From Lophium mytilinum (lineage: Eukaryota): a DNA stretch of 64,000 bases. Location: NCBI GenBank assembly GCA_010093605.1, contig MU004204.1:204959-268958 (forward strand), written 5' to 3'. The translations under genes and the position numbers were made by a program. The notes beneath the pieces are model-generated. The model was not told where the DNA came from. It did not search any database and saw only the letters and a program-made list of their open reading frames with translations. This document shows, piece after piece, positions 12,678 through 43,060 of this stretch; position 1 is the stretch's first letter, and every line of letters begins with the position of its first letter.

Positions 12678-12984
12678 TGCTACTGGACTGAAGCTCTCCT
12701 CGAGAATCTGCGCCCAAGATCGTACCGCGTCGACGCGACCTTTGGCAGCTTGAAGCTTCGCATCCGCGTCCCTAGAGCTCCACGCACCTACATTGCATCT
12801 TCGGCTATCTCTCTCGGCCTCTCACACTCCTCCGCTGTCCAGTACATCACCAACCTCATTGTGTGCTGCTAGACCGAAGCTCTCCTCGAAACCTGCACCC
12901 AAGATCGTACTGCGACGACGCGACCTTTGACGGCTAGGAGCTTCCCATCCGCGTCCCTAGAGCTCCACGCACCTACACTGCATC
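12678..12984 (+). repeat. ~120-bp imperfect direct repeat, 2 copies (12678-12799, 12864-12984), in the WD40 gene promoter/5' UTR
   Basis: gaagctctcctcga...cccaagatcgtac...gacgcgacctttg...catccgcgtccctagagctccacgcacctaca occurs twice, offset 186 bp. Confidence 0.92.
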
Positions 12985-13005
12985 CCTTCCCTGTTGCCGC
13001 TCACA

Positions 13006-16000
13006 ATGGCGCAACCACACCTTGTTGACCGCCTCCTCCGACGAGAGCTAGGCGATGATCGATTCTCGCGATACTCGAGCGTCCAAGGCCTCTACGGGGA
13101 CCGGAGATGGATTAGCGAGCTTGATATCGTCAACAAGTTACGAGGACACACGGGCTGCGTTAATGCTCTCAGGTACGCCCGGCTGCAACGCTATATATAT
13201 ACTTTTGCTAACTCAGTTTGCCAGTTGGTCCCGATCAGGAGAATTCCTTGCGTCCGGATCCGACGACACCACAGTTATCCTCCATAGATACTCTCCCACG
13301 GAGTCCCTCCAGTTCGAAGAAGTCGGTAGCATCTTCACTGGCCATACACAGAACATCTTCTCCGTCAAATTTATGCCGCACTCCAATGATAGAACCATAA
13401 TTACGGCTGCTCGTGATAGTCAGGTTCGCATATTTGACGTGGAATACTCTGGAAGGACGAGCGCTACCGTTACACCATCGTCAAGTAGCTATCATTCAGT
13501 GGGGTTTGGCTCCTGGAGCATGACTGCAGGCGATGAAGATACCAACGTCAAAGTCTTTCGGTCCCATTCAGAGAGCGTCAAGCGAATCGTCACCGAAGGG
13601 TCGCCATTCTACTTCTTGACATGTTCAGAAGATGGTGACGTGCGGCAATGGGATATCCGCCTACCATCCACAGCATATCCATCGACCTCTGACTCCGGGA
13701 GTGCCCCACCGCCCCTTATCTCCTACAAGAGACAGGGCATACAACTGAATACAATTTCATGCTCTCCAAGCCAACCCCATTACATCGCACTTGGCGGGGA
13801 CCATCTGCATTGCTTCTTGCACGACCGCCGATTTCTTGGACGCAATATTCCTGCAGAGCAAGGGGCGCCAGGTTCCTCAAGTAGTGTCCAGGGTAGACGT
13901 TATGGGGAAGAGGTCAGCAAAGCCACAAACTGTGTGGTGAGGTTCGCCCCAGGCGGCCGGCGTCGAATGAAGAGCAGCGACAACAGGCAGATTACAGCAT
14001 GCAAGATCAGCGACGCTTACCCGAACGAGTTGATAGTCTCATGGACTGGGAATTCCATTTACAGTTTCGACATCATCCGGGGCCTTCCTCAAACCCAAGA
14101 TCGGCATGGTTCGAGAGAGTCGAAGCACGGAAAGCGAAAGCGGCAACAAGCCGGCTCGTTTGACTCTTACGATGGCCTAGAGCAGGCTACAGCTCGCCTT
14201 CGAACCGAAAGCACACACTCAGATTCGGACGAAGACATCGCTCTGAGAGTACAGAATGGCGGTAGCCAGCACGAGGATGACCCGATCGAAGCAGACACCG
14301 AGATTGACGTTACAAAGAACCAGCGCGCTCATCAGATAGCGGCCGAGCTTGTCAATATTCGCAACAAGATGTTCTTGCTTGAGCACCCTGCCTCAGCCAT
14401 CGACCTCACACGCCGAGAGCACATCTTCTCTTCCGTTGTACAGTCGTGCGCTCGAATAATTCCAATCGTGGATGCCGCCATTACCTCATGGCAGCATCCT
14501 GATTCGCCAACTACCTCACAGATCGCTCAGCGGAATGGCCAGGCCGCAGCTCGTCGATTTCTCCAAGCGACAGGTCTTCTCGCCCGTGTCCTCGGTGGAA
14601 AGCTGTCGGTAACTGGAGAGCTTGAAGACGAGAACCACAACGCACGCACAATTCAGCAGTACTACACTGTGATCGGACCTACCGCTACAGAGGAAGACAG
14701 CTGCCTCCTTCAGAACGAGCGGACCATTTCCACCCGCGCACAGTTCTGCTACGATTTCCTAAAGGCTATTTGCTTATGGCTCGACAGCGGCCTTGGGGCA
14801 CTACTCCATGGCTTTTCGACGTCAGCCGGTCGTGGCAAACGCTTTCCAGTGCGACGGAACGCGAGCATGACCGCGGTAGAGGCCGCACTCATCCCTTATC
14901 TCGAACGTCTCGCCTCAGACAGACCGATTATGGACGTTGACAAGTCTAAGTTCCATGTTCAGGAAAGTCGAGTCCTCTTCGAAACGGAGAAGGATGCAGT
15001 TGCCGCATTTGCAAAGGCGGTATTGATTCCATTCGCAGATTTGGTCAGCGATGAGCCTGGATCCTCCTCACAGAGTGGCGAAAACGAGACCCAAGCCCGT
15101 CGGACAGCTTTGGAGTTTTGGGCATTCAAAGTCGGACGCGGTGTCCTAATGAGTGCAGCCAGACTGGAACCAGAGGCGACTTTCCTAGACCACTCGTTCA
15201 CCAAGAAAGTGTTTGGTGGAACTGGACCTCCGAGTGCGCAGGTTGACGACGCGGAGAGAGACTTCTTGTCACGACACGAGGACATCGACGACTCGATACC
15301 TAGCGATAGTGACGATGAGGACACAGAGCCAGAAGACGACGACTACGGCGATTATTCGGACGAAGAGGAGGAAGAACGATACGCGAGCATCTACGAGCAG
15401 CACAGGAACCGCAGATACGTAGACGAGCACACGCCATGCCATAGTCAAAACCGCACGTATACGGGCCACATCAACGTGAAAACGATCAAAGACGTCAACT
15501 TCTTCGGACGCAACGACGAGTACGTCGTCTCGGGCAGCGACTGCGGAAACTTGTTCATATGGGACAAGAAGACCACACGCATCGTAAACATTCTGGATGC
15601 GGACAACGACGTCGCCAATGTTCCAGCAGGTGTGGCATTCTTCTCTTATAAACCAGAGTTTGTCCAAGTTGCAGGTATCGTATCTGCAAGACTTCCTTCT
15701 TTTGTAACAACTTCTGCTAACACTGACCCCTAATAGCGCACCCATACGAACCCATGCTGGCGATTTCGGGCATTGATCACACCATAAAGATCTTTTCCGC
15801 GGACGCAAAGGCCAGACAAAACGCACGCGATGGCGTCGCAATCAGCCACCCACCACGCCGCCCCCACGCGCCGCCACTGCCCCCTCGCGCCCCAAGAAGC
15901 ACCTGGAGCGACGAAGAAGAGGAGGAGATTGCGCGTAATGGCCTCAAAAGCCGCAAGAGGCTGCACGAGGAGTACACAATAACGGCAAAAAACGCCCAAG

Positions 16001-16182
16001 CGGCGTCCGCGGCGGAACACGAGCCGCGCCTCGAAGTACGTCCGGGTTCTTTCTTTGTGAATGGGTTCCAAGTGCCGCCCTATAGTTAGTTAACATATTT
16101 ATCCACGCAGTGGGCTCTTTTGGTGGAACTAGCGGCGAGGAGGCGGGCGGGGGAGGGGGAGGATAACTGCGCGATGCAGTAG
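13006..16182 (+). CDS. DCAF8/DCAF6 (Iqw1)-like WD40 protein, putative CUL4-DDB1 substrate receptor, with C-terminal CaaX
   Basis: GHTGCVNALSW..LASGSDD, GHTQNIFSVKFMP, TCSEDGDVRQWDIR (DWD), GHINVKTIKDVNFFG..YVVSGSDCGNLFIWDK, HPYEPMLAISGIDHTIKIFS. Three introns; the last exon ends ...DNCAMQ*. Confidence 0.88.
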
Positions 16183-16300
16183 GCGGTGGGGGGAGGAGGG
16201 GTGGGGGGAGGCCCCTTTTTGTACAATATATATACCAAACGCGGCCGTAAAAGGCCCTTCTTTGCTGCATTGTGTAGTTGCTCTTGGTGAAATTGTAATC

Positions 16301-16512
16301 AATAGTAGTTGTTTTAACTATAATAGTTATTGTAACTAACGCTTAGGGCTATAATGTAAGTAATACCAGTTATTCTAACTAACACTTAGAGCTACTAATG
16401 TAAATAATAGCAGTTATTATTACGAACGCTTTGGGCCTAAATATAACTAATACTAGTTGTTGTAACTAACGCTTAGGCTAGATCTTATAATTAGTAGTAG
16501 ATGTTATAACTA
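16301..16512. repeat. AT/TpA-rich minisatellite, 43-44-bp unit, about 5 degenerate copies
   Basis: Core taactaacgcttag (variants) recurs at about 16333, 16376, 16420, 16463 and 16507. Confidence 0.8.
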
Positions 16513-16613
16513 GTTGTATTTACTACTTCTTACCACATTTTTAGTAGCTATTATGCCTACCACGCTGCGTGGACCCCTACTTTCTACTACTCTACCCATT
16601 TGGCCACATTCAC

Positions 16614-17302
16614 GTGCGTTTTGACACTGCAGATAATGATGGAAGACACCCCTGGGCTAACTCGCCTCTCTGGAAAGTGAATGTAAAGGGTTTGATCCTG
16701 TAAATTAGACTGTAGACGCGTGACATGCATATTTACACCTTTTGCCTGCTGCATTCAATATCAGGGCATGTCGGGGTGCGTTTTGACAGTATGGACACCG
16801 ATGAAGACGCCCCTGGGCTAATTCGCCCCTTTGGAAAGTGAATGTAAAGGTTTCTACCTTATAAATTAGACTGTAGACATGGAACATGCGTATTTGCACC
16901 TCTTCTATGCTACATCCAATATTAGGGCATGTTGGGGTGCCTTCTGACAATATCGACACCGATGAAAGCCCCCCTGGACTAATTCGCCTCTCTGGAAAGT
17001 GAATGTAAAGGTTTGGACCTTGTAAATCAGACTGTAGACACGTGATATGCATATTTGCACCTATTTCCTATCATATTCAATATTAGAGGGTGTCGGTGCG
17101 TAATTTGGCTGTATGAACACCGATATAGGCGCCCCTGGGCTATCTCGAGTGCCTCCAGTGTCGATGTAAAGGTTCACAAGTCGTAAATTGGACCTCGATT
17201 ATGTAAGATGCATATCTGCACCCCTTCCCTTCTGCATTCAATATTAGAGGATGTTGGTGTGCGTTTTGACAGTATAAACGCCTATAAAAGCGCCCCTGGG
17301 CC
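16614..17302 (+). repeat. 161-bp tandem repeat array A (about 4.3 units), non-coding
   Basis: The ctgg(g/a)c anchor after cccc occurs at 16652, 16813, 16974, 17135 and 17296 (exact 161 spacing). Shared blocks gtgcgttttgacag, gacaccgatgaa, atgtaaagg, ttcaatattag. Confidence 0.95.
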
Positions 17303-17478
17303 TTACAGACTTACGGACTACTCAATGTCAAGAGTGTCACTACTCAGATTGAGCGGCAAGAGATAAGAAACATTTAGAAGGTTCATACCGCTGTTAGGGG
17401 TGCCCCCAGGTATCATAGAAATCGTATATACATTATCATCGTAGAGCTCATACCATAGCGTTGTAAACATACCCTTGC

Positions 17479-19450
17479 CTAAACAAACACGAACATGACC
17501 CCAACAGCGATACACAGCGCGAGCGTCTTCCCCACAGGGCCCGCTTCCTGCGCCAGCGCAGCAGCCGTAGAGCTTGTTGTCGCGACCGGCGCGGGCCCCG
17601 TCGCTGTCGAATCCGGCGTTGTTACTGTCGTCGCAGCTGTCTCCCCGGGCACCACTGTAGCGAGCGCAGTGGAGCTCATACTGTTGCTGCTAGCGACCGA
17701 ACTGCTTTCAGGCACTGAACTCGGTATGACCGTTGTCCCGTTCCTGCGCAGCGAGTCAACGGGGACGACAGAGCTGTTCGCCCAGCTCTCGCCGCTGCCA
17801 CCGACTGCTTCGGCGAAGATGAAGGAGCTGTAGTTTGCGTGCGTGAAGTGGGTCTCGAAGCCCTTTTTCGTCACGTTGCCTAGTATGTGGAAGGGGCCCG
17901 AGTCGGATGTGCTGCCCCACAAGCGCCAGGACTGGACCTCTGTCGCGCCATTCCAACTGATGTAGACGTTGAGAGCGGTGGATGCGTTTTGCTGCTGCGG
18001 TTGGGCTATGAGTGCGGGCTTGTCGTTTGGAGTTGCGACCCAGGGAGCCGTGTACGCGCGGTAGTTCATGACGGGGTATGCACCGAATGTGGCGTACAAG
18101 ACAGCTTCGCCGGCGGCATTGGTCTCTGAGATGGCGGGAAAGGAACCCCAGCCATGGAAGACTCCACCAGAGGCTAGAACTTGCGAGTTGCCTTGAGAGT
18201 CTGAGAGGATACCACCGGGAGTGGGCGCAAAAGTCTGGGAGACGAGGGTAGCGGCTTTCGTGTCAAGATTTATGGCAATAACCATGCCAGATGACTCGGT
18301 TGCGGTACGATTGAAACCGTTGCTAGCATTGTCGAAGAGTGAGATGATGGTGTGGGTGGAGTTTTCCAGAATGAAGCGTGCATCGTGTTGGAAGGAGAAA
18401 TTGAATCCGGAGGAGGTAAATGATGCGCCGGGCCCACCGCTGCTCAATTGCCAGATTATGGAGCCATCGTCGGGAGAGATGAGGTAGACGGATGAAGTGT
18501 GCCGTGCCGAGATGAGGTAGCGGCCTGTTGCGCTGCTCTTGTCGACTGCGTTGATGTGGAAGTAGTCCCAAGGAGCTTGAGCGCTACCATTACCGGAGAC
18601 ATCGCTGGAGCCGGCAGCAACGTACGAATTGGCAGGACTGACGTGATCGATAGAGGACCATTCGAAAAGTACGGTTCCAGTCTCTACCTCGACTTCTTGG
18701 AATACACCCTGCATGATCCATGTTGGGAAACCCGTGATATTGAACGCTGCAAGGTCATACTGGAACCAGTTGTAGGCGGTAAAAAGTGCGGACTTGCCGC
18801 CGTTGATGAGATTGAACTCGTGGATGTCCGCATGCTTGCCGTTGCCGCACGCAACCGTCTTGACAATCTGGTAGCTGCTGTTCATTATGATGCCGTCGCC
18901 GAGGCCATATCCTTGCTTTTGCGAGCCACGCCACATGCACAGGTGGTCGCTGCCGTCGTACGTGCAGACTTTGTGGTCCATGGTATTGTTCATTTGGTAT
19001 GCTGCATCATATCCGCTCCACACAAGGTCCTACGCCTGTTAGAAAAGTGCAATGGCAGCAAACCTAGATATTAAATTTACTGACGCCGAATTTGTTATAG
19101 ATATACGGCCCGCGCTGAATTGGGCCATAGGGAGCTATGAAAATGTACCCTGAGCTAGCCGTCAGCTATCCAACCTTTTGACATGGCGGTAAAGCTTTTT
19201 CTCGTACCAGGCGCGAACCCGTTTTCGATTTCAGAATTCTGCAAAGAGACATTGAGTGCGGGGGCTTGAATATCGGGTCGCTGTAGACGTCAACACTGCC
19301 ATTGGCTTTTGCAGCTTTACCACAAAAAACCCAGATTGTTCGTTAAATGCTCACGGAAAAGTAAGTGGAAGTGGGTTCACTGATGTTGTCATTGGCTAAC
19401 ACTGCTGCCAGCAACCAGGGAACGGCTGCAGGAATGGCGAAGCCATACAT
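17479..19450 (-). CDS. Secreted arylsulfotransferase (ASST)-domain protein with Ser/Thr-rich stalk and probable GPI signal, 4 exons
   Basis: Signal-like MYGFAIPAAVPWLLAAVLA; RPDIQAP, GYIFIAPY..GPYIY, DIHEF, WDYFHINAVDK, YLISARHT, FQHDARF, SLFDNA, NYRAY, YISWNGAT, GFET; hydrophobic C-terminus. Confidence 0.88.
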
Positions 19451-20993
19451 GGTGTAGAGCGAGAGAAGCAGAGACAACGCAAAGCTAAAAACGGGAGAAG
19501 AACGACGTTAAGAGGACTCGATGCACAACGACCCCAGTCGTGTGATGTGATGTGTTCTGGAAAACCTAGGATGCCCCTCGGGCTAATTGAGGCTTAATGG
19601 TAGCTGCAAGCTGTAGCGGGCGATGGGGCATATTGAGCATCTGGAGAATCCCGCCGAGCTCGCAGAAGCTCCAGTTGCAAGCTGGTGTGCTCCTGCAAGC
19701 TCTTTTGTTCGGCCAAACCTTGGAACACCGTGCTCCTCAAATCGGGAAAGCCCCAGCCACAACGTGGTTTTCGGGTATGCAAGCGGCGGCAAGCAGGGCT
19801 GGACCAGCCTAATAATGGAGGTAGCTCCGACACTGGCCTCAGAAGAGGGGCCGAAGAAGGCAGCAAAAAGTTGTTTGTTTGCCATCTTACGCGTCCGCCA
19901 AGACGAATGACGGCAACAAAAACTTCCCTTGTTCTTATTTTGACTGTGGGCCAATGGTACTGCCCTTTCACTGTCTGAAGAGAGCTGTATTGGCGTAGCA
20001 GCACGCAGGCCATGCATCTTGCATACACTAGCCACAGGAGTGAATGCGAGATGTCATGTTTCTCACCAATGACGGTTGTTTCGGGTAAGCTACGCATTGT
20101 TGACTTCGGTGAAGGTGCAAGTTTTGGCAATAGCAGGATCGTGCAGGTGGGTCGTTCCGGCGAGGCGAGGCCTTATCATCCATACTACCGAAGAGCCAAG
20201 CAGGGGGCCGTGCAGGATCGTGTGTTCGAAAACAGGTGTTTTGAGGCCGGGGTTTTTAGCTTGAAGAAGAGCATCTGAATAGGCACTAGTGGTTTATTTA
20301 TGAACGAAGTCGGTGAGAATGCTGCCTCTCCTGTGAGCCTCCGTGCTATATCTTGGTTAGATCACACATGTTTCAGCTATGCCTTGGCGAAGGCCACATG
20401 TTTTTGGCCAGTTTGGAGAAAGGTTGAAAGGCCAGTCAACGGAGAAAATCAGGAGGGAGGCGCCCGGATAGTGGGGAAATCCATGACGCTGGTAATGGCT
20501 GAGACTAAACAGATAGTCTCAGCAGCATGAAGACAAGCCTTTCCATACAGAGTAATAAAAGAGGTATCAAGCCCTTGGTACAACCTCTGAAAGTTATATG
20601 TCGAGGAGTTGAGAGCTGTAGTTGAACTTCGTGGTGGGGAACGCTTATTTCGACTAAATTCTAAGCTTAGGCCGAGGAAGCCCAGCATCACGCTGTCATG
20701 AACAAAAATCCTTGTCTCAAGGCCAGCGGTCTTGCCAGCGCTTCAAAATAAGACTATGTTGAGACTTATATAGCCATCTCGCTATAAAGTGTCGGCTGTG
20801 CACGTGATGGTCTCGTGACAAAGACATATCTTGGCGTCTTGGCGCGTCAACCTTAGAACGCGATGCACTTTCGCAAACGACCTCACTTCCGCAGCCTCAC
20901 TCCTACACCGTCAACTTCTGTCGTGGGCCGTGTAGCTGCAGTCGCTGAAGTCCACATTAGGGCCCTAACCCCGAGGCACAACATCTCCTCAAA

Positions 20994-23021
20994 ATGTGAG
21001 TCTTCAACATTCGCCTCAATCCGCCTTCATGAACCCCGCGCGTCGCGGTGTTTGGGGACAGCTGGCCTCTTACCCATACCTCTTGGGTGTACATTATCTT
21101 TTCTAATCGAATCACAGGGAGTCCTTCGAAGGTATATACCTCAACCTTTCGAAGCAGCCTGGCAGAACTCGAATCGCAGAAGCCGGGCTAGCATGGAAGC
21201 CCCCAGGAACTGGCGAGACCTTCACCCTAGATTCCTCTCAGCTCGTACAAGCACAATGGAGCAGGGCGGCACGAGGGTATGAAGTGAAGATACTTTCCAG
21301 GTCAGACGGCGTGGTTCAGCTAGACGGATTTCAGCAAGAGGTCAGTTCCCTAAGTCCATAGAGCTGGCTCCTGCTGACCTACTAGGACTTTGAGCGCATC
21401 AGCAAGGTTTTCAAGAGCTGGTACAGCATCAACTTGGAGAATCGGGAGCACGCGCTGCGGGGTTGGAATTGGGGAAAAGCAGAGTTTGGGAAAGCTGAGC
21501 TATCATTCAACGTCCAGAGCCGGCCTGCCTTCGAGATACCGTATACCGAGATTTCCAATACCAATCTTGCTGGAAAAAACGAAGTGTCTGTCGACTTCTC
21601 TTTACCCGCAAACGGCGAAGAAACAGGCACGAATGGCCATCTTGGAGGCTCGCGGAAGAACGGAAGAAAGTCCGGCGCAGCTAGGGACCAGCTTGTTGAA
21701 ATGCGCTTCTACATTCCGGGTACTGTGACCAAGAAGGAAAAGAAAGAGGACGGCGAAGACGTCAGCGATGGCGAAGACACAGAAGAGCAGAACGCAGCCA
21801 ACCTATTTCAGGAGACGCTCATGAACAAGGCTGAGATTGGCGATGTCGCAGGTGACAACTATGCATCTTTCCAGGACATTCTCCATCTCACACCTAGGTT
21901 CGTTCCTCGGGCCCTTTCTCATCCCATGAATGCTAACTTTTGTTCCAGAGGACGCTTCGATATCGACATGTACGAGAAGTCATTTCGATTGCGTGGAAAG
22001 ACATACGACTACAAGATCCAATACGAGGCTATCAAGAAATTCATGCTGCTACCCAAGCCGGATGACGTTCATATGCTTATCACTGTAGGTTTGGATCCGC
22101 CACTGAGACAGGGTCAAACACGATATCCCTTTCTCGTCATGCAATTCAAGCGGGACGAGGAAGTGAACCTGGACCTAAACCTGACGGATGAAGTCATCGA
22201 GGGAAAATACAAGGACAAGCTCAAGTCCCATTACGAGGCGCCAATTGCCACGGTAGTCAGTGATATATTCAGGGGCTTAACGAACAAGAAGATTACGAAG
22301 CCGTCGCTAGCATTCACTAGTCATCACGGGCAAAATGGCGTCAAATGCTCAGTTAAGGCGAACGAGGGCCATCTTTACTGTTTGGATAAGGCCTTCATGT
22401 TCGTACCAAAGCCTGCAACGTACATATCGATCGACAATGTTGCTTCGATTACAATGTCACGCGTGGGTGGAGCGATGGCTGCCAGCAGAACCTTCGACAT
22501 AACTGTCACCATGAAGAATGGGGCTGGAGAACATCAATTCAGCAACATCAACCGGTACGTTTCAATAACAAGTATCAACAAGTCAAAGAATCTGGTCGCT
22601 AATAATGCTATTTCCACAGCGAGGAGCAAGGGCCTCTGGAGACCTTCTTCCGCGCCAAGAGTATCAAGACGAAAAATGAAATGGTTGATGACGTAAGTAC
22701 TCCTACTTGCTACAATTAGATAGATACTTACCCGTCATTTAGTCCAGTGCGATCATCGCTGCGGCGTTGCAAGACGCTGAACTAGCTTCCAGTGAAGACG
22801 ATCGCGTTGTTAACAACAGGGGGAGCGCAGACGAAGACGACGAGAGCGTTGACGAGGACTTCCAAGCCGATTCTGATTCCGATCCGGCAGAAGAGTACGA
22901 CTCGGATCACAAGAGCAGTGGTTCAGACAGCGACGAAGAGATGGCAGACGCAGACAGCGACGGCCCCGCGAAGGAAGAGATGGTCGAGCGACCCAAAAAG
23001 AAGGTCAAGACCTCAAAATGA
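20994..23021 (+). CDS. POB3: FACT complex subunit Pob3/SSRP1, 6 exons (first coding exon is only 'AT')
   Basis: Spliced MESFEGIYLNLSKQPGR...GWNWGK..., LTPRGRFDIDMY..FRLRGKTYDYKI, LDPPLRQGQTRYPFLV; acidic tail with NLS RPKKKVK. Confidence 0.96.
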
Positions 23022-23837
23022 GTGCTGCTCAGAAGCGAGGCGAACTGGTAACGGAAATGGCAAAAGCGATCAGTCCAGGCTAGGACAGGGGGCTTCATTG
23101 ATATGCGTAATCCCCAGAGTCTTCAATCCCCAGATCGACGTGCGTCCAGAGAGCTGGGATTTGGGTTTGAGTTTGGAGCTTTCTTCCTGGCGCATAGAGC
23201 TCCCATTAATGCGCACAAAGGCAACATAACCGCCGAAGAGGCTTGTTGCGTGATATTTAGCACGTGGACTCGAGTCGGTAGGGCGAAAGCCGCCTTTATT
23301 AGTGCTGCCACAACTATACGTTATGCCGTATGGAGTAACCCGGTCGTTTTACACTTGGCTTTGAGACCCTTCCGTTCCCCCGTAAGGCATATTGTAGTTT
23401 AGCTTTCGCGTATCCTGGCTTGGATCGAGATTAAAAGTGAAATGTGAATGGGTGCTCGTAGCGAACTTCCCTGTGATGTGTGGAGTTCGATGCGTCCTAT
23501 CCCTAACAGAGCTACCCGAAGGCATCATGAGTCCGGTTCCCCAGGATTGAGCTGCATTTACCCCAGAGTGTCCGTGCTGGTCTGGTACACTGGTAGGAGC
23601 TTCTTCTGTGCTTTCTCTGCAGCTATCGGACCGTAGTACGCATAGTCTAGAAGATCTTCGTCCCCCCGCACCGCTCCGATTTCTCAACACACTACGGTCC
23701 AACAATCGGAGTAGACCCCTCAAAGCCAACCACGATCTTCTCTTCTGATCAGAACTTGTGATAACGCTCCTACAATACGGAATGCCTGTGGCGACGGGTT
23801 GGAGAATCGCAAAACAGCTTGGAGACCGGATATTGAA

Positions 23838-26238
23838 ATGAGGTCACGAACAGGATGGTATGAATATTGGGTGCTACTCTCAGGTAAACCTTACTGATAG
23901 TTCCCAGCTTGACTTGCCGGCAGCGAAAGCTAAAGTGCGATGAGATGAAGCCAGGCTGTGGGCAATGCGTGAAAGCCTCCAGAGAATGCGTCCCCAGCTC
24001 AGGGCTCATTTTCCGCCATCAGCACAATGCCTCTATGAATGGCGACGCTGACAGCGACGACAACAGTCTCAAGGGATTCTACGCGTACAAGAACACGTTT
24101 GGTGACGAGAGCGTGTGGGTCGACATACCCAAGACTGGTACGTCATAGTGCCTCAATTGACTGAGTAGAGTGCTAACGATGCCCCAGTTACGTTCATCAA
24201 CACCACCAACCCTTACAATGATCCTCCAACTCCCGAACCAGATCGCTTTTCTACATCCTCACAATCTCCTCACTCTATCAACCCAAGCTACAACGAATCG
24301 TGGCCTACTCCGCGGAGCGTTTCCCATACGAACAACACGCCAGGCGCAAACGGGTTGCAGGCGTTGTCTGCGGCTGCGGCAGGAGAGCCGTTCTTGTTCC
24401 AATCCCCTGGAAACGAGAACGAGGAGCATGTGCATACGTCCCTAGAGCACGTCCCCTCCATGCTTTCCCCAACAACCTCTGTAGAGCCCTTATACGGTTC
24501 GCCAATCACTTTGTCTAATAACAATCTCGAGTTCATCCTAAATCACCCACATACATCGTCTCCTCCCATCGATCCCAATCTACCAACCTCATTTCCTCCG
24601 GAAGAGAACGTTTTCCGTGGCCGTACAGCTTCTGGAAACCTCGTTCCGCCCAATGTTCAGTTTGATAATCACGGGGAGGATGACCACGAGATTGCGTTTC
24701 TTCTTCGCCATTTCTCTGAAGGGCCAGGTTACTGGATGGATCTCTTTGATCTTGATACATACTTCGCTTCTTACGTCCCTGTCAAAGCAGTAGATAACCC
24801 TCTTCTGAAATATGCCGCCGTTGCGTACGCAGCAAAAGCGCTAGCACGGAGGGGTGGAACAAAACCCACAATGGGCGGCAACTTCTCACGTCAGGCACGC
24901 ATGGAGCTATACCCAGATATACAGTCCGTGGATTGGTACCATAAAGCTACCCATTACTACGACAGAGCCGTGTGCCATCTTCGCCAAGCTCTCCAAGACG
25001 AGTCACATACACCGCTTGACTGCTCGGATTTGGAACCGAGCTGGGCATCAAACATGGACTTCCATGAAGAGAACAACCCACACAGCCACAAGAGACGCCG
25101 GACCTCCTCATATACTAGTCGGCGAGTGTCCAACCCGGACGAACTTCTCGCCGCTACGGCCATTTTGTCCGTATATGAGTTCTTAGACGCGTCAGTCCCG
25201 GAATGGTCAAGGCACCTGAACGGCGCCAAGTCGCTGATGGACATTGCTAAAGAGCGTATGATGCCTCTTCAGCTTCCATCTCCAGGAACTCATCTACTCT
25301 CGCCACACGTAGCTCGTCTCAACAAAGCTCGGAAAGCTACGTTTTGGAACATTGCACGGCAAGATATGCTAGCAGCGTGTAAGTTAATCACCCCTTTCTT
25401 ATCGTTCGGATGCTGACTATCCACAGTCATCAACGCAAGTCACACCCGCCTTGACACCGAAGACCTATCCCTATGGAGAGAAGCCGGCCTCCTCATTGAC
25501 TCGCGCGGTTTCATTCTCCCCTCGAACACTGAGCCGTCCGGATACCCAGAGGCCGACTGTCCCATCATGAGAGAAGACGCCATTTCAAACGCACTCATCT
25601 GGCTCATCTCCAAACTCGTCAACTTCATGGCTGCCGGCGACGATATGCCGGACTACTTCGGCGGGCCTTGGGCTGGCGTTCCGCAACGCACGCTCCTCGA
25701 GTACTGGTATAGCCTCCGCGAGCACTTCCGCGTCTGGTACGAAGGCCTCCCGATAACATTCAAGCCATGTGCACGCATCGAGCCCCGGCGCGTACCCGCC
25801 CAGCTGCGGACTGACGACGATGAGAACGTGTTCCCGGAGGTCTGGTTCTCAATCCCCATGTGTGCGTCTACGATGCAGTCATACCATATGGCGCAGATCC
25901 AGCTGCTAATGAACCAGCCGCACGAGTCAACGCAAGGGCGCTCGACAGTCTTCGAGCGGATGCACTCGTACGAACGGACGCTCTCAGCAGCGCTGGTGCA
26001 TTCGAGGGAGATTGTGAGCATTGCGCTGGCGCGATCGGATGAGAGTGTGAGGATACATAGCGTGCAACCGCTATATACGGCGGGTCAGTGTTTGAAGGAT
26101 CAGCGGGAGAGGAGGCTGATTTTGAGGCTTTTGAGAGATATAGAGAGGGACACGGGGTGGGCGACGGAGTATCGCGTGAAGCAGCTGTTGGTGCAATGGG
26201 GCTGGGCCGTGGAGGAGTTTGAGAGAGATGTGCCATGA
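23838..26238 (+). CDS. Zn(II)2Cys6 transcription factor with fungal-specific TF C-terminal domain, 4 exons
   Basis: Spliced [78 protein letters not shown]. Confidence 0.9.
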
Positions 26239-26279
26239 TTCCTGATTCTCGCCCTTTGGAACTTCACTTTATACCCCCA

Positions 26280-26516
26280 GCGCTTGAGATGGCCCAGGGG
26301 CACTTTCATCGGCTTCTTCATTGTCAAAACGTACACCGAAATCCTCTACTATTAAACGCAGAACGGAGGGAGTGCATATATATATCATATAATCAAGGTC
26401 CAGTTTACGACTTGTGGCCTTTTACATATTCACCCTGTAAGCACTTATGATGGCCCAGCGGCGCTTTCATCGGTATATGCACTGTCAAAATGCACGCCTG
26501 TATCTTCTCATATTGA
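26280..26516 (-). repeat. 161-bp repeat array B (about 1.5 units), inverted copy of array A
   Basis: ggcccag at 26291 and 26452 (161 apart). The stretch aligns to the reverse complement of array A unit 4 (ggcccagggg..tgtcaaaacg.acacc..atcctcta.tatt..gcagaa..ataatc.aggtcca.tttacgacttgtg). Confidence 0.9.
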
Positions 26517-26737
26517 TCACATGAGTGAAACGGTGCCGAAAAACTAGTCACAGAATCCAGGTCAAGCTTGAGCTGAAGAGAATCTGGCGAACTGTTCTTT
26601 TTGAGAAACTGCCCGACGGTCGGCCTCTGAACTACATCCACTGCCATAGTTCAATTAACGTTTCAAGTCAAGTCATCCATGTCTGGAAAGAAAGCTAGCG
26701 ACGTAGATCATCTCAACTGATTATTGGATATGCAGTT

Positions 26738-27660
26738 TCACCACGGCTTTCAGAGACACAACTTCATAAACTCAGCTTCTTCGTAAGGCGCATCCTTAGC
26801 TTCAGGTCGCAAATTCGCTCTTAGGGCTATAGCTCGATCTTTGCAGATTTGACTCTCTGCTTCCATTCCCTTGTGGTTATACAGTATGGCGAGTTTGTAG
26901 TTAGCTCGGGCTAGCTGGCCTTCTCCCTCGTTCAAGGTCTGTGCAATCGCAATGAGTTGCACGAATATTTCGCTGTTAGGAGTTAGTGTTGAATCGATTT
27001 ACCGGGATTCGAATGCTTACACAGCTTATGCTCTATTCTTTTGCAGTTGCAGCAGCTGTGCCACTCCATACAAAGAGTCACATGTCGTTTAGTCGGTTCG
27101 CAAGCAGAGTTTGACGGAAAGTGAGTGCCTTGGATGCAAGGCGCATTGCTTCGTCAGGGCGACCTTGATCGAGGCGCATCCGGGAGAGGAGTACCATATT
27201 ACCAGAAAACCGGTGATTTCCTGTCTGCAGGAAAGTATCATCCGTGAAATCCTTCAGCGAAGGGCACATTGCGAGCATTTTTTCCGCCTCGTCCGGCTTT
27301 CCCATGCGGAGAAGGAGGTTGGACATGTTGCTCTATGAGTTCCCAATTCGGTCACTGTTCGTTTGAGGAAGGATGTCAATTGCTTTTTTATGTATGTCAT
27401 ATGCTTTTTCTAGCTCGCTCATTTCCGTATAAGCAAGCGCGATGTTGTCCAGGCTGGAGGCGATAAGCGGATCACCAGGGCCTACTAAATTTTCGCGGAT
27501 TCTGAGTGCAATGTTGAAAGGGATCAAAGCTTTCGCTGCGTTGTTCATGTCGAGATCGATAAGACCAGAAAGATCAGTGGCACTTGCAAATGCCAGAGTG
27601 TTCTTTTGATGGAATGTCTCAAGAGCCATGTGGACTAGATTCCGGGCAGATATACCTACT
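26738..27660 (-). pseudogene. Decayed TPR-repeat C-terminal region, of the type found in fungal NB-ARC/TPR NLRs
   Basis: IASSLDNIALAYTEM..LEKA, MSNLLLRMGKPDEAEKML, LASKALTFRQTLL, LARANYKLAILY. In-frame TAG at about 27333 and further stops; no NTPase domain upstream. Confidence 0.75.
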
Positions 27661-27758
27661 ATTGGATAGTAATTTGATCATAACGATTTTCAGAGTTAAG
27701 ATAAATTGCCCGCTGCATCGCAGAAGGAGCTCTCCGTGTAACCGAGGCAATGCCTCAA

Positions 27759-28755
27759 TCAGACTGCACCCTCCATCCAGCTCTGAATTACGCCTTCCAT
27801 GGTCGGCTTGTACTCTTTGAAAGTAATTTCGTCTCCCGCGAGGAAGGTGTTGGCCTGAACGAAGACCCATTTCGGACCGCTCTTCACTAGAACAATTTTC
27901 CGCCATTCAAGATATTGGCCATCCACTCTTGAGAGCTTCTCATAATAGGTGCGGCAAGCCTGAACGTCAGCTGTGCATAGGTACATATGCAATCTAAAGA
28001 GCATCCTTCCCAGCGCCGATTTCCCATAGGTGTTGATCTTAGAACGGTCGACGCGCACGATGAGCTCCTGCCCATGAGAGTTGTATTCGATCGTCATGAA
28101 GCCGTCACCATCTGTCAATAGATGCTTAAGCATAGCGAGATGAGCCTATACTGATATATTAATACCCTAATCAACATTTCCATAAGGCAATATGGAAGTG
28201 CTCACCCTGCTATGCGCTTGTCCCCATTTCTGTAGTCATGGAATGTTAGCACTTCCATATTAGACGATAATGATTATTCGATAAGCCTCACCCCATCATC
28301 TATGTTGAAGTTTTGCAGCCCTCGAAGACCATCAACACCTAGCTGAAGATATGTATTGAATGTGACTATATACATTAGTAAATTGCGCCTAGTATAAGTG
28401 TAGGAAAACCTACGATCTTCGGCAGTGATATCTGCGTCACTAATGAACCCAAGCAAAGCAAGTAACTCTTGATCATGTATCAAGTATGCCCCACAAGTTC
28501 GGCCCTACAATCGTCAATAGTAGTTGCCAAGTCTCCGAACTGACCTGTCCAGCTTTGCCCAGGATTGTACATACCAAGAAGTGATTGGCTTTCCAGAAAG
28601 TGAATCAACCGGGGGATTGTTGATATCGAAATTGAACCTGATTTCACTCTCTTAAATTAACATTTTACCAGTCCCACGACCAAAGAGCTCATGCAGGACT
28701 ACCAACCAGTAGTAGGCTGAGAACTTGTGTTTCCGGAATGTCTCCGCTTCAGCCG
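27759..28755 (-). pseudogene. 5'-truncated dipeptidyl-peptidase III (M49) pseudogene
   Basis: VVLHELFGRGTGK (HELxGH motif altered), in-frame TAA, FNFD..PPV..GKPITSWY, frameshifts, DDCRAELV, KWGQAHSRAH, FVQANT..EY.PT.EGVIQSW. Confidence 0.88.
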
Positions 28756-29279
28756 TAAGATTTTTCGAACTGCTTTTTAGCGGAACCCGAATGCCTCTAG
28801 ATTCGCCCGCTTTGCTACCTCATTCACCATTATGGGCTACGGCGCTTGATTCCTGTCCTTCAAATACAGGGCCCAGAAATGTGGTTCCTGTTCGTCTTCA
28901 GATCTTAACTCAAGGTCAGCTCGCCCTACCTCAGCTACAGAACGCCTGCTTGTGAATGCACGACGGTGAAAATGTAGAGCTTGACTATCATCCCCTGGCC
29001 TAGATAATCGACACAACTGTCAGAGTGACTACGAAGAGCGGGAAGGGTTGAGAGGTGACAGTGATTTCACGCTGCCGAAGGAAGCATTGACAGAGAAAGA
29101 GTTAATGTTTAAAGTTTACAATGCTGTATGGTATGCGCCATCTACTATACAAACTTGACTGAGGCAAGCTTGAGATAGTTTTCTTAATCCCATTCGAAGA
29201 GTGCTCTGACCTAGCCTAGCCACTTCGCGAGGCATGTTTGCCAGAGCCTCGTTCTGAACCCATCCGTTGATATCGAACC

Positions 29280-29713
29280 CTAATTCGCCTTTTTCGCTTT
29301 CAGAGCCTTCCGCCTGTTGCTTCGGATCATGACGACGGAGAGGAACGACCCAATGACGGTGCTGAAGAGGATGATGAGAATTACGGGAATTCGAATGGCC
29401 CAGACGCGTGGTGGGAAGAAAGCGTGAGAGAAGTGGGGTTGGTCGACGAATGGCTGAGTGATGGTGTTAGCTGAAGTTTCAAGGTAGGTGGCCTGCTTAA
29501 GAGAATTTTGGGGGGTTGGAGAATCTTGGAGGAATGTTTCGTGTATGTAATGAGAAACTTACCATAAACAGCGTCCAGATTGTGTAGTAGAGGAAGATGG
29601 TAGTTGCTGCGATGAGCATCGTGAGGCCTACGAGACGGTCCAGCTGGAAATATGTTGTTAGTTGTGGTTCTCTGCAATCCGTCTCGAGCAAGGTATGGAG
29701 TGAGACGCACCAT
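29280..29713 (-). CDS. DPM2: Dolichol-phosphate mannosyltransferase regulatory subunit, 3 exons
   Basis: Spliced MLDRLVGLTMLIAATTIFLYYTIWTLFMPFVD..FFPPRVWAIRIPVILII..GSFLSVVMIRSNRRKALKAKKAN; first exon is ATG only. Confidence 0.93.
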
Positions 29714-30051
29714 TTTGATATCGAATGCAAAAGAGTGAAAGTGAATGGCTCTGGATACGCGTTCAGAGTGGTCTGTAGAGCGTTTCTGGAGTGCTGTTCT
29801 GGCCTCTGGCGCGAAGTTGATTCAATGGGTCGAGACAGGGGTCAGCTGAGTGCAGGGGTGCGCCGCAGCTTTCGCTCCGACACGTTTCGCCGACGCCGAA
29901 GAAACTTCAAAGGTCCGCCTAAACCTCATCATCACAACACCATCACCTCTTCCTCACCACCCTCACCACCCTGCTTCGCGCAGCGCCCTGAGGTGCCTGC
30001 GACGTAGATACTCTTATCCAATCCACGTGTTGACGGTTCCCAGCTCCCAAG

Positions 30052-32643
30052 ATGGAGATTGCCTCCGCAGTCCGCGTGCCTTCACCAGAGCCAGCGCCTC
30101 TTCCCCGAAAGCGCGACCGCTCGCCCGCCGAAGCAGGACCCTCGAAACGACCGCGCCCGACATCCTCACGGAATGATGACGATGGAGCTGTACAGGCGCC
30201 AGAACGAGAGCGAGGCACGCGGCCCCCGCCGCCGCGCGAGGACGACGACGCCCGCTTCAGACAGCTGCAGGAAGCCATGACGTTCAGGCGCAAGCCCGCC
30301 ATCGACGACTCGAAGACTCGAGCTGGTGGTGCCTACATCCCGCCTGCCCGCCTGCGTGCGCTGCAAGCTGCCTTCACCGACAAATCAGGCCCGGAGTTCC
30401 AGCGCATGGCTTGGGAAGCCCTGAAGAAGTCAATCCAGGGCATGATCAACAAGTGCAATACTGCAAACATCAAGCAGATTGTGCCAGAGCTGTTTGCTGA
30501 GAACTTGGTTCGGGGTCGAGGCTTGTTCTGCAAGGCCATCATGAAGGCGCAGGCGGCTAGTTTGCCCTTCACCCCCATTTACGCCGCCATGGTAGCCATT
30601 GTCAATACGAAGCTGCCACAGGTTGGAGACCTGCTCTGCCGACGTCTGATCATTCAGTTCCGGAAGTCTTTTAGGAGAAACGACAAGGCGGTCGCGGTAG
30701 CCTCGTCGACTTTTATGGCGCATCTGGTCAATCAGCAAGTGCTCGACATTCTTGTGATTGCTCAGGTCCTACTGCTGTTGCTGAGCAAGCCTACGGATGA
30801 TAGTGTGGAAATTGCTGTTGGCATCACAAGAGAGGTTGGACACTTCTTGGAAGAGATGAATGGGAAAATTGCGAATACCATATTTGAGCAATTCCGTAAT
30901 ATCCTGCATGAAGCAGGTATCGAGAAGAGGACCCAGTATCAGATCGAGGTTCTGTTCCAGGTTAGAAAGGACAAATACAAGGATAACCCGTCTGTCAAAG
31001 AGGATCTTGACCTTGTAGAAGAGGAGGATCTGATTACGCATCGCCCGGGAAGTCTTGACGACATGGCTCTTACCACTGAGGATACCCTCAACATCTTCAA
31101 GTATGATCCAGACTACGTCGAGAACGAGGCGCAATATCGCAAATTAAGGGCTGAGATCCTCGGAGAAGCTGGTAGCGACGATGAGGACGGTTACACCGAC
31201 GCCACAGACTCAGAGGACGACGAAGGACAACAAGAAGACCGCGAAATCGAGATCAATGACCGCACGAATGCTGATTTGGTGAATCTTCGACGAACCATCT
31301 ACCTTACGATCAAGAGTAGCTCCGGATTTGAGGAGTGTTGTCACAAGCTCATGAGAGTCAAGCTCCCTCCTGGTCTAGAAAACGAGATGACCTCCATGAT
31401 CATCGAGTGTGCGAGTCAAGAGCGAACGTATGAGAAATTTTACGGTCACATTGGCGAGCGGTTTTGCAAGCTCAACCGCATGTGGACAGACCTTTTCGAG
31501 TCTGACTTTGCCAAGTATTACGACACGATCCATCGATTCGAAAACAATAGACTCCGGATCATCGCGCAGTTCTTTGCCCATCTGTTGGCCTCAGATGCTT
31601 TGGGCTGGCACGTTCTGTCTGTCGTTCATCTCAATGAAGAGGACACTACATCCAGCTCTCGTATCTTCATCAAGATTCTTTTCGAGGAACTCATCCAAGC
31701 TATGGGACAGAAGACCCTTGTCGCGAAGCTCCAAGAGGATTTCCTTCAGCCCAGCCTGGCAGGCATCTTCCCAACTGATAGTCCAACCAACGCTCGCTTT
31801 GCCATCAACTTCTTCACAGCCATCAACATGGGTGTGTTCACGGAAGGCATGCGTAACTATCTCAAAAACGATGCTCCAAAGCCTGCGCCGTTGCCAGCAG
31901 TGGAGGATTCAGACTCGGAGAGCGTGTCCTCCTACTCATCCTACTCTTCGCGTTCGCGTTCCCGTACGCGATCCCGTTCACCGCGCCGCCGTCTTGCGTC
32001 TCGCTCGCTTTCCTCACGATCACCGTCTCGCTCTGTCTCACCTCGACGCAACCGGCGGTATTCATCCTCCCCGTCCCGTTTTCCATCACCCCCGACTCGC
32101 CACCGTGGCCGCTCACTCACGATGTCGCGCTCTCCTACTCCCCCTCCGCGTCATCGTGGTCGTAGGCACACATCATCTCCTTCTCGCTCTCCGTCCCCGC
32201 CTCCCCGCCACCGAGACCGTTCACTGTCAGACTCGCTTCCGCCTCGTCGCCATGCGCGCTCAATCTCCGACTCTCCCCCACGCCATCGTAGAGCTCGTTC
32301 ACCCACCTCTCCGCACAGGCAGCGATCGCCTCCACGACGTCACTACTCATCCAGTCGCTCGCGGTCCCCACTTCCGGACAGACGCCGACGCGAGTCCGCG
32401 TATTCTCGGTCCAGGAGTCCGCCTAGGCGGAGGGCGGGCCAGTCGAGCCCGCCCAGGCGCCGAAGACCCGGGACGCCTTCACCTCAACGAGGCGGTAGGA
32501 GGGCTAGGCGAGACTCGACGCCCCCGCCGCCCAGAAACAGGAGGAATACGAGCTCTGTTTCTGCGGCTGCTCCGCCGCCAACGCGTAGGAGGAATTCGAG
32601 CTCGGTTAGGGGCTCGCCACCGCCGCCCAAGAGGGAGAACTAG
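30052..32643 (+). CDS. CWC22: Pre-mRNA splicing factor Cwc22 (MIF4G + MA3, RS-rich tail)
   Basis: GGAYIPPARL, QRMAWEALKKSI, ENLVRGRGLF, PTDDSVEIAVG, LRRTIYLTI, TTSSSRIFIKILF, RFAINFFT. Confidence 0.97.
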   Translation: MEIASAVRVPSPEPAPLPRKRDRSPAEAGPSKRPRPTSSRNDDDGAVQAPERERGTRPPPPREDDDARFRQLQEAMTFRRKPAIDDSKTRAGGAYIPPARLRALQAAFTDKSGPEFQRMAWEALKKSIQGMINKCNTANIKQIVPELFAENLVRGRGLFCKAIMKAQAASLPFTPIYAAMVAIVNTKLPQVGDLLCRRLIIQFRKSFRRNDKAVAVASSTFMAHLVNQQVLDILVIAQVLLLLLSKPTDDSVEIAVGITREVGHFLEEMNGKIANTIFEQFRNILHEAGIEKRTQYQIEVLFQVRKDKYKDNPSVKEDLDLVEEEDLITHRPGSLDDMALTTEDTLNIFKYDPDYVENEAQYRKLRAEILGEAGSDDEDGYTDATDSEDDEGQQEDREIEINDRTNADLVNLRRTIYLTIKSSSGFEECCHKLMRVKLPPGLENEMTSMIIECASQERTYEKFYGHIGERFCKLNRMWTDLFESDFAKYYDTIHRFENNRLRIIAQFFAHLLASDALGWHVLSVVHLNEEDTTSSSRIFIKILFEELIQAMGQKTLVAKLQEDFLQPSLAGIFPTDSPTNARFAINFFTAINMGVFTEGMRNYLKNDAPKPAPLPAVEDSDSESVSSYSSYSSRSRSRTRSRSPRRRLASRSLSSRSPSRSVSPRRNRRYSSSPSRFPSPPTRHRGRSLTMSRSPTPPPRHRGRRHTSSPSRSPSPPPRHRDRSLSDSLPPRRHARSISDSPPRHRRARSPTSPHRQRSPPRRHYSSSRSRSPLPDRRRRESAYSRSRSPPRRRAGQSSPPRRRRPGTPSPQRGGRRARRDSTPPPPRNRRNTSSVSAAAPPPTRRRNSSSVRGSPPPPKREN

Positions 32644-42759: not shown

Positions 42760-43060
42760 CAGGTGGCTATTATCTTCCAAGCACTATAATATATAGCTAG
42801 GTAGTAGAGAGTTAGCTCTAAGCAAGCCTCTATACTCTCTTAAGAGAGGGGGTGCTAAGGTCTATCTTACTAAGGTCTATAGTAGCTTTATAGTGTGCTG
42901 CCGTAGATAGTTGCACCTTCATATTGAATATGCTGGCTAGATAGACATATTCTAACGGCAGGCCTAGGGTTCTTTTAATCTGGGGGGCAGATAATACCTT
43001 AAAGAACCTCTAGCGCAGTGGTAGTAGTGACAAACTAAGGCGGTAGATAACAATCTCTTA
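42760..43060. other. TpA-rich, CpA-poor tract resembling RIP-mutated repeat relic
   Basis: Dense TAG/CTA/TATA words (ctataatatatagctaggtagtagagagttagctctaag); ctaaggtctat duplicated. Confidence 0.5.

What the first reader, a model, noticed from the sequence alone, without database searches (positions are those of the whole stretch)
16614..26516. Dispersed 161-bp repeat family: two inverted arrays 9 kb apart, each just downstream of a gene 3' end
Seen: array A (16614-17302) has an exact 161-bp period over about 4.3 diverged units. Array B (26280-26516) is its reverse complement with the same period. They bracket the ASST, POB3 and Zn2Cys6 genes. Both have the same orientation relative to the adjacent stop codon (about 180 nt after the ASST stop, about 45 nt after the TF stop). 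Each borders decayed DNA on its outer side: a TpA-rich minisatellite for A, the TPR/DPP III relics for B. Length is conserved despite many substitutions, and 161 is not divisible by 3. Inference: unit length is constrained (close to the short fungal nucleosome repeat length), suggesting a nucleosome-phasing or boundary element, internal repeats of a non-autonomous mobile element, or a multicopy small RNA.
Basis: partly seen in the sequence, partly recalled or inferred. Interest (0 to 1): 0.75.

Follow-up and report, generated by a model that had tools for sequence, protein, structure and literature searches.

The report
MITE-linked satellite-like arrays in a fungus
The two 161-base repeat blocks are real but are only two of dozens of old, non-coding tandem arrays in this fungal genome that are built from one 97-base module, also found inside a small jumping-DNA element, so they look like transposon-related satellite DNA whose partly kept core and stepwise spacing may, or may not, reflect a bound protein.

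Summary
Observation confirmed: array A (16614-17339, five cores 161 apart) and inverted array B (26242-26565). They are not a local pair. A 31-bp bipartite core matches 168 places genome-wide (control 1). Of 40 loci examined, 31 are arrays on 13 contigs, built of one ~97-bp module plus a linker; spacings cluster at 98, 106, 130, 140, 153, 161, 171 and 202, so 161 is the commonest class, not a fixed length. The module resembles the left arm of a 227-bp TA-flanked Tc1/mariner-type MITE (209 matches, control 0). No ORF, fold, Rfam hit, intron or 10-bp periodicity. Arrays favour gene 3' ends (42 of 61) with no polarity, as MITE copies do (35 of 53). Relatives give no support for a 9-kb inversion. 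Best reading: MITE-related satellite-like arrays, spread by duplication and grown in register (0.55). Unexplained: six slow boxes ~27 bp apart and length classes in ~10.5-bp phase (p 0.001-0.025; period 8 fits equally well), hinting at protein binding (0.25). Earlier scan notes describe similar arrays and a TA MITE elsewhere in this genome; identity not verified.

The parts
16216..16604 (+). Non-repeat 'head' of array A, duplicated with the array at other loci; holds a short inverted repeat (16214-16281) and the minisatellite
   Evidence: 63-69% identical to the head of array E on contig C7 (E 1e-14 to 1e-20); 68 nt 71% identical to the head of array D (E 1.5e-6 in 512 kb); last 30 nt shared with array C
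16325..16477 (+). 43-bp TpA-rich minisatellite inside the head, RIP-like
   Evidence: TRF period 43, 3.5 copies; TpA/ApT 2.04, (CpA+TpG)/(ApC+GpT) 0.44 over 16286-16560; its motif recurs in the heads of D and E
16614..17339 (+). Array A: 4 full 161-bp units plus a partial fifth; each unit = ~97-bp module + ~64-bp linker
   Evidence: 16816-17339 lies in an ungapped spliced-RNA contig of the ASST gene
16680..16710 (+). First of five 31-bp bipartite cores of A (others start 16841, 17002, 17163, 17324)
   Evidence: the core pattern matches 168 places genome-wide against 1 in the reversed control
17479..19029 (-). Main exon of the arylsulfotransferase (ASST) gene; array A is in its 3' UTR region
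   Evidence: PF14269 E 1e-62; RNA contig 16816-19028 with further spliced exons
21386..23021 (+). POB3/SSRP1 gene (main part); ordinary host gene, syntenic with the TF in relatives
23906..26238 (+). Zn2Cys6 transcription-factor gene; its RNA contig runs to 26399, into array B
   Evidence: PF00172
26242..26565 (-). Array B: unit end (66 nt), one full unit (core 26398-26428), and a decayed module ending at the TF stop
   Evidence: its full unit groups with A4 (bootstrap 99)
26741..27747 (-). Broken TPR (NLR-type) gene relic; array B begins ~180 nt behind its 3' end in the same sense
27762..28789 (-). Broken DPP III (peptidase M49) 3' fragment, transcribed with its old introns still spliced
   Evidence: joints at 28144-28205, 28229-28292, 28365-28414
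13052..16182 (+). WD40-repeat gene whose 3' end faces the head of array A (stop position inferred from the sequence)
   Evidence: spliced RNA contig 12948-16135

Best explanation
Arrays A and B are old satellite-like short arrays of a genome-wide, non-coding family. The repeated thing is a ~97-bp module of fixed geometry ending in a 31-bp bipartite core; arrays are module-(linker-module)n, with linkers of a few discrete lengths, 161 bp total being the commonest. The same module forms the left arm and loop of a 227-bp TA-flanked Tc1/mariner-type MITE. Shown: the family, its size, the length classes, the resemblance to the MITE, copying of head+array as one piece between contigs (A, D, E), and local in-register growth (A1-A3 clade; dimer repeat in C). 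Inferred: the module spread through an older relative of the MITE (or the MITE captured it, as the arrays are more diverged than the MITE copies), lost its ends, was amplified head to tail by slippage or unequal exchange, which keeps unit length, and survived mostly in 3' intergenic DNA where insertions are tolerated. The partly kept boxes are taken as left over from binding of a transposition or host protein during spread; no present host function is needed.
For: Core 168 vs 1 control, MITE variant 209 vs 0. MITE: 20 of 30 fetched copies full length (212-235 bp), TA on both sides in 18 of 20, 27-bp TIRs, mean identity 0.80. A matrix from 110 array modules scores the MITE's sequence upstream of the core, which was not used to find it, above shuffles in register (p 0.005-0.012); the MITE profile hits several arrays at MITE positions ~25-113. 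Other arrays on C24/C19 (periods 139, 151) are tandem MITE fragments. 31 of 40 loci hold two or more units. Tree and identities show array-wise growth. Indel/substitution ratio 30/630 = 0.048, like other non-coding arrays here (12/267) and like the neighbouring pseudogenes (3 frameshifts, 3 stops; about 0.04-0.05). 3'-end bias equals that of MITE singles (42/61 vs 35/53). Precedent: MITE-derived tandem repeats in Xenopus (PMC12628747, passages).
Against: Full-length consensus-to-consensus alignment of unit and MITE is not above shuffles (69 vs mean 63, max 87); the link rests on ~65 nt. No MITE termini or target duplications around the arrays. No transposase with these ends among 14 DDE_3 relics. 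In MITE copies the core is no better kept than the rest of the interior (0.67-0.73 vs 0.66-0.68), whereas across array loci half-sites are 0.70 and flanks 0.29-0.39 (inflated because most loci were found by the core). Rates within the unit are uneven beyond a neutral model: 25 unchanged columns vs 9.1 expected, six slow boxes at 26.7-nt period (p 0.007), repeated in two independent unit sets (Spearman 0.34, p 1e-5). Indels are three times rarer than in relatives' intergenic DNA (62/424). The arrays are not RIP-like.
Confidence: 0.55

Rival explanations
1. The module is a host-selected docking platform: a DNA-binding protein (or pair) recognises the bipartite core, copies must sit on the same face of the helix, and arrays near gene 3' ends act as terminator, insulator or chromatin-organising sites; the MITE merely captured one module and spreads it.
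For: Eight length classes with two or more spacings share one phase at 10.5 bp (R 0.76, p 0.001; best period in a 10-11 scan is 10.5, p 0.005). First half-site 82-97% invariant at seven positions in 150 cores. Slow boxes reproducible. Compensating indels keep 161 in B2, C1 and array E. 161+/-2.5 in 11 of 17 loci with near-random linkers. A and B lie in transcribed 3' regions.
Against: With all nine classes p is 0.025, and period 8 fits as well as 10.5 (R 0.77-0.78); classes are related by descent. Core conservation is partly a product of how loci were found, and 317-322 spacings imply decayed cores. No polarity, and the 3' bias is the same as for MITE singles. ASST RNA reads through three units. 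No core in 80 metagenome fungal loci (0 in 870 kb vs 13 in 512 kb), but only 2 of these are near relatives.
Confidence: 0.25
2. Nucleosome-phasing or boundary element whose unit is held at the nucleosome repeat length.
For: 161 is the commonest class (13 of 40 loci) and 317-322 and 482 spacings occur; measured repeat lengths in four fungi are 161-172 bp, 161 and 166 in two Leptosphaeria species (10.1101/2021.04.16.439968, passages).
Against: 47 of 88 spacings are below 147 bp, often in the same array as 161-bp units. No ~10-bp AA/TT/TA periodicity in the consensus (p 0.81) or in any of 10 units. Other tandem arrays in 512 kb span periods 35-207.
Confidence: 0.08
3. A and B are the inverted ends of one element, or breakpoint duplicates, that carried or inverted the 9 kb between them.
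For: Inverted orientation; B2 groups with A4 (bootstrap 99); B lies in an interval where gene order differs from relatives (DPM2-CWC22 is reversed); inverted duplications mark inversion breakpoints in Drosophila (PMC1885836, abstract) and inversions are frequent in Dothideomycetes (PMC3516569, passages).
Against: In L098 and L099 the TF 3' end is still next to the CWC22/DPM2 pair, so an A-B inversion is not the simplest history. B lacks the head, and no target duplication above chance was found. Dozens of unpaired arrays exist.
Confidence: 0.05
4. Multicopy small RNA, or relic of a coding or exon-intron repeat.
For: Alternating kept and variable segments; one frame shows 29 synonymous to 36 non-synonymous single changes; both arrays are partly transcribed.
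Against: No consensus fold on either strand (-0.2 and -2.0 kcal/mol; mean z +0.6 and -0.2), no Rfam or tRNA hit, stops in all six frames and no codon phase (p 0.81), no intron in the RNA contig across A and intron-signal counts at shuffle level.
Confidence: 0.04

Closest known systems
MITE-associated tandem repeats of Xenopus: Xstir and the Tc1/mariner MITE miDNA4 (as reviewed in PMC12628747, passages read)
   Same: A Tc1/mariner-type MITE whose interior also exists as dispersed tandem arrays of a few monomers without element ends; direction (derived from, or captured by, the MITE) open in both.
   Different: Here no MITE was seen with a multi-unit array between its TIRs; arrays use only the left arm and loop; linkers fall into discrete length classes; arrays are far more diverged than the MITE copies; host is a fungus.
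Satellite-like short arrays carried by Helentron HINE elements in Crassostrea gigas (PMC7492417, passages read)
   Same: Dispersed arrays of 2-9 monomers of 100-200 bp; A, D and E share a left flank with an inverted repeat and a short tandem repeat.
   Different: No shared right flank, 3' subTIR or palindrome; the head is found in only 3 of 32 arrays.
mimp MITEs of Fusarium (impala-derived, Tc1/mariner; PMC5579170, passages read)
   Same: For the 227-bp element: size near 180-220 bp, non-coding, TIRs opening with CAGT after TA.
   Different: Its TIR does not fit the published 16-nt mimp pattern beyond the first bases, so it is a separate family; mimps are not described with tandem arrays in the passages seen.
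Satellite DNAs with conserved boxes, e.g. Meloidogyne Box 1 / CENP-B box-like (PMC3694981, passages read)
   Same: Uneven variability along the monomer, short motifs kept among otherwise diverged monomers.
   Different: Short euchromatic arrays between genes, bipartite core with a 9-10 nt variable spacer, no known binding protein.

Membership tests
Dispersed satellite-like short arrays | Head-to-tail non-coding monomers of 100-500 bp in short arrays at many loci | tested here: met
   31 of 40 loci, 13 contigs; stops in all frames
Dispersed satellite-like short arrays | Uneven variability along the monomer | tested here: met
MITE-derived or MITE-borne tandem repeat (Xstir / miDNA4 type) | Monomer homologous to the interior of a MITE | tested here: met
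   in-register likeness upstream of the core p 0.005-0.012, shared core; whole-consensus alignment not above shuffles
MITE-derived or MITE-borne tandem repeat (Xstir / miDNA4 type) | Some arrays still enclosed by the MITE's TIRs | tested here: not met
   no MITE profile hit on the heads of A, D, E; no shared tails; only 40 loci examined
Tc1/mariner-type MITE (the 227-bp element) | Under 500 bp, non-coding, TIRs, high copy number | tested here: met
   212-235 bp, 27-bp imperfect TIRs, 209 pattern matches
Tc1/mariner-type MITE (the 227-bp element) | TA target-site duplication | tested here: met
   18 of 20 full-length copies
Tc1/mariner-type MITE (the 227-bp element) | Autonomous partner with the same TIRs | tested here: inconclusive
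   14 DDE_3 relics, all with stops, none with a convincing MITE match in about 1.5 kb of flank; other transposase families not searched
mimp (Fusarium) | TIR fits the published 16-nt mimp pattern | tested here: not met
   pattern in PMC5579170 compared by eye with the consensus
Helentron HINE | Left flank with subTIR, inverted repeat and microsatellite | tested here: inconclusive
   inverted repeat and 43-bp minisatellite in the head of A, D, E only
Helentron HINE | Right flank with 3' subTIR and palindrome | tested here: not met
   (arrays A-D)
Nucleosome-positioning repeat | Unit equals the nucleosome repeat length | tested here: inconclusive
   161 class matches 161-172, but 47 of 88 spacings are under 147; repeat length of this organism unknown
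Nucleosome-positioning repeat | ~10-bp periodic AA/TT/TA | tested here: not met
Nucleosome-positioning repeat | Phased nucleosomes on the array | not testable with these tools
   needs MNase-seq
Structured small-RNA gene family | Conserved secondary structure or Rfam/tRNA match | tested here: not met

The most novel reading that the evidence does not exclude
The genome carries a network of dozens to hundreds of helically phased arrays of one bipartite protein-binding site, placed near gene 3' ends, kept by selection, tuned in 10.5-bp steps (with 161 bp fitting one nucleosome) and still being redistributed by a MITE that captured one module: a transposon-spread chromatin or termination element not described in filamentous fungi, which would unite many 'separate' repeat families noted in this genome.
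Probability: 0.15. Interest if true: 0.78.

Novelty: new variant of a known kind. Interest (0 to 1): 0.45.

Why it matters
If the plain reading holds, this is a fungal case of MITE-to-satellite traffic, which my searches showed only for animals and plants, and it gives one module that may explain many of the ~98, 107, 140, 151 and 213-bp arrays noted separately in this genome. If the core is a selected, phased binding site, it is a directly testable genome-wide cis-element (a 31-bp probe is enough for a footprint or pull-down) and an example of a MITE wiring gene 3' ends.

Tried and rejected
BLAST-type searches of the own genome with A, C and D found only 4 loci and a 19-mer from the first box only those 4 (9 of 16 hits, control 6): I first read the family as low-copy, which overturned. 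A 41-nt consensus pattern found nothing. The single partial hit at C19:529167 was not accepted. RNA fold, Rfam, tRNA: negative. Coding or exon-intron origin: rejected. Pol III B-box: 1 match in 4 arrays. RIP as cause of the divergence: no CpA bias. Kinship of the RIP-like 164-bp array on C24, and of the 149, 207 and 115-bp arrays: not above shuffles. Link of the head to the 567-bp element's TIR: not significant (1 of 4 comparisons at 0.035). Target duplications around A and D: chance level. Exact pattern in metagenomes: 0 hits. Unit, module and MITE profiles on 80 metagenome POB3 loci (870 kb): no hit; this says little, as only L098 and L099 are near. No run was on record as RNA; X3 was judged RNA from its GT-AG joints, and its contig ends are not transcript ends; run X4 covered no array. 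A first gene-calling model was too weak and was replaced (7 calls on shuffled DNA of 27 kb, and short 5' exons are under-called, for arrays and MITE singles alike). One search failed in part and was redone. 68 of 168 and 109 of 209 pattern matches were not listed, and 15 more listed core loci could not be fetched, so counts of arrays are lower bounds.
Full report
Observation. Both arrays are real. TRF reports period 161, 4.1 copies, 75% matches, and the repeat finder gives 161-spaced copies in A and B with inverted arms of 70-81%. A unit profile extends A to 16614-17339 (4 units + 82 nt) and B to 26565-26242 (66 nt + 1 unit + 95 nt). The window is G000:C24:204959-268958 in a 43.4-Mb fungal genome. 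Pfam confirms the neighbours: WD40, ASST, SSRP1/POB3, Zn2Cys6, TPR, peptidase M49, DPM2, CWC22-type MIF4G/MA3. Spliced RNA contigs (run X3, judged RNA from GT-AG joints) cover 16816-19028 without a gap and run to 26399, so parts of A and B are in the 3' regions of the ASST and TF transcripts; no intron falls in either array (15 of 17 joints and 16 of 34 pieces were shown).

The family is genome-wide. DNA searches first gave four loci: A, B, D (C24, 2 kb before the window) and C (C19). A pattern from the middle of the unit found two more, and a degenerate core pattern (RATGTMAAG, about 10 free bases, YGTRAAYNRGAC) then matched 168 places against 1 in the reversed control. I examined 40 loci (the first 4, 16 brought fetched): 31 hold two or more units, on 13 contigs; shuffled loci give 0 hits. 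All share a ~97-bp module of fixed geometry that ends in the core, followed by a linker. The 88 spacings of 210 or less fall into classes at 98 (10 spacings, 5 loci), 106.5 (24, 12), 130 (2, 1), 140 (10, 6), 145 (1, 1), 153 (2, 1), 161 (30, 13), 171 (5, 3) and 202 (4, 3); several arrays mix classes. Spacings of 241-322 were left out as probable sums over a decayed core.

The link to a MITE. A uniform variant of the core matches 209 places (control 0). Thirty of these loci define a 227-bp element: 20 full-length copies, 27-bp imperfect TIRs, TA on both sides in 18 of 20, mean identity 0.80, a long hairpin (-103 kcal/mol). This is a Tc1/mariner-type MITE, mimp-like in size but not matching the mimp TIR pattern (PMC5579170, passages). 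The core sits at about +80 to +112, and the sequence upstream of it, which was not used in the search, fits a matrix from 110 array modules in register (p 0.005-0.012). The evidence is modest: whole consensuses do not align above shuffles. Two other arrays in the 512 kb scanned (periods 139 and 151) are tandem MITE fragments. No autonomous partner was seen among 14 DDE_3 relics. The arrays have no MITE ends; A, D and E (C7) instead share a unique head of up to ~390 nt with an inverted repeat and the RIP-like minisatellite, so head and array were copied as one piece at least twice. Tails are not shared.

Growth and decay. A1-A3 form a clade at 80% identity, A4 groups with B2 (bootstrap 99), and C is a dimer repeat (C1/C3 76%, C2/C4 77%): arrays grew in place and in register, which by itself keeps unit length. 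Over 17 units of A-D there are 30 indels per 630 substitutions (0.048); eight other non-coding arrays in the 512 kb give 12/267 (biased, as TRF favours few indels); relatives' non-coding DNA gives 62/424; the adjacent pseudogenes give 3 frameshifts and 3 stops, about 0.04-0.05 (small numbers, one uncertain junction left out). Across loci 161+/-2.5 holds in 11 of 17 loci with spacings of 145-177, although non-core identity is 0.29-0.39 without gaps; this is highly significant under the relatives' indel spectrum (p 1e-5 to 2e-4) and unremarkable under the family's own (p 0.27-0.89). Length constraint is therefore open.

What remains unexplained. Change is uneven: 25 unchanged columns against 9.1 expected (maximum 19 in 400 simulations), in six slow boxes with a 26.7-nt Fourier peak (p 0.007), repeated in the A/B and C/D sets separately (Spearman 0.34, p 1e-5). 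Uneven variability is common in satellites (PMC3694981, passages). The eight classes with two or more spacings share a phase at 10.5 bp (R 0.76, p 0.001); with the single 145 spacing p is 0.025, and period 8 fits as well. In 37 MITE hits the core is no better kept than the rest of the interior, so any constraint is on the arrays, or is an effect of finding them by their core. I know of no factor for this site; likenesses to forkhead or yeast origin motifs are recalled, partial and untested.

Position. With a self-trained coding model, ends facing 32 array entries are 3' in 42 of 61 calls (p 0.004 against 0.5): head side 22 of 30, tail side 20 of 31; MITE singles give 35 of 53. So there is a 3' bias without polarity, shared with an ordinary MITE, and partly due to under-calling of 5' exons. 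B and E end at the module end right at a stop codon, but C and D point into the 5' ends of an EXPERA and an MFS gene. In the two nearest metagenome relatives (L098, L099; about 72% coding identity) POB3-TF is followed by CWC22(-) and DPM2(+), so that pair is reversed relative to the window, while the TF end stays beside it; an inversion between A and B is not the simplest history. B shares that rearranged interval with a decayed DPP III-TPR pair.

Negative tests. No fold, Rfam, tRNA, ORF, codon phase, intron, 10-bp periodicity or RIP signature in the arrays. Nucleosome repeat lengths of 161-172 in four fungi (10.1101/2021.04.16.439968, passages) match the main class, but 47 of 88 spacings are too short for a nucleosome.

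Comparison and verdict. It works like MITE-associated tandem repeats of Xenopus (PMC12628747, passages) and short dispersed satellite-like arrays of oysters (PMC7492417, passages); it is not a HINE by its right flank, and no array was seen inside TIRs. Ten paper searches were run; some searches showed, in listings and abstract starts, no such family in a fungus; the library lacks most subscription papers, and Dfam and Repbase could not be searched. PMC1885836 (abstract) and PMC3516569 (passages) were used for the inversion rival. No supplements were read. Earlier scan notes describe ~98, 107, 151 and 213-bp arrays, a 38-base core family and an abundant TA MITE in this genome; they may be this family, but they give no coordinates and sequence look-ups returned nothing. 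Verdict: a new variant of a known kind, most likely a transposon-related relic (0.55), with a real chance of a selected, phased binding array (0.25). Interest 0.45.

Noticed in passing
window 42634-43200: 567-bp element with exact 29-bp TIRs and the same 9 bases on both sides (Mutator-type target duplication), TpA-rich middle; no second copy in 512 kb.
   Followed up: partly
window 27762-29750 (-): RNA contigs run from the DPM2 gene region through a broken DPP III fragment whose old introns are still spliced, at high contig depth.
   Followed up: partly
window 26741-28789 and P0083: The DPP III and TPR relics match one Pseudogymnoascus gene model in the same order, suggesting a linked accessory gene pair; the only other DPP III match in the own genome is 41% identical.
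   Followed up: partly
window 29280-32643 versus L098/L099: The divergent DPM2-CWC22 pair is reversed relative to POB3-TF between this genome and its two nearest metagenome relatives.
   Followed up: partly
L205 and L210 (C12, C18): Modules in inverted, tail-to-tail or back-to-back arrangement, a possible intermediate between arrays and the hairpin MITE.
   Followed up: no
L195 / L196 (C3 ~461 kb and ~479 kb): Another inverted pair of arrays about 18 kb apart that share a 155-nt head at 80%, like D and A on C24.
   Followed up: no
L098 1826-2282 and L099 622-2136: The relatives carry their own inverted and repeated non-coding family about 8 kb upstream of POB3.
   Followed up: no
G000 C19 ~729415-729674: 53-bp tandem array (4.9 copies, 77% matches, no indels) whose unit holds 5' splice-like and branch-like words.
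   Followed up: no
G000 C24 22756-23237: Heavily RIP-like 164-bp array, not detectably related to the 161-bp unit.
   Followed up: partly
window 51351-52795: Cluster of 68, 105 and 111/99-bp tandem repeats with open frames, probably coding.
   Followed up: no
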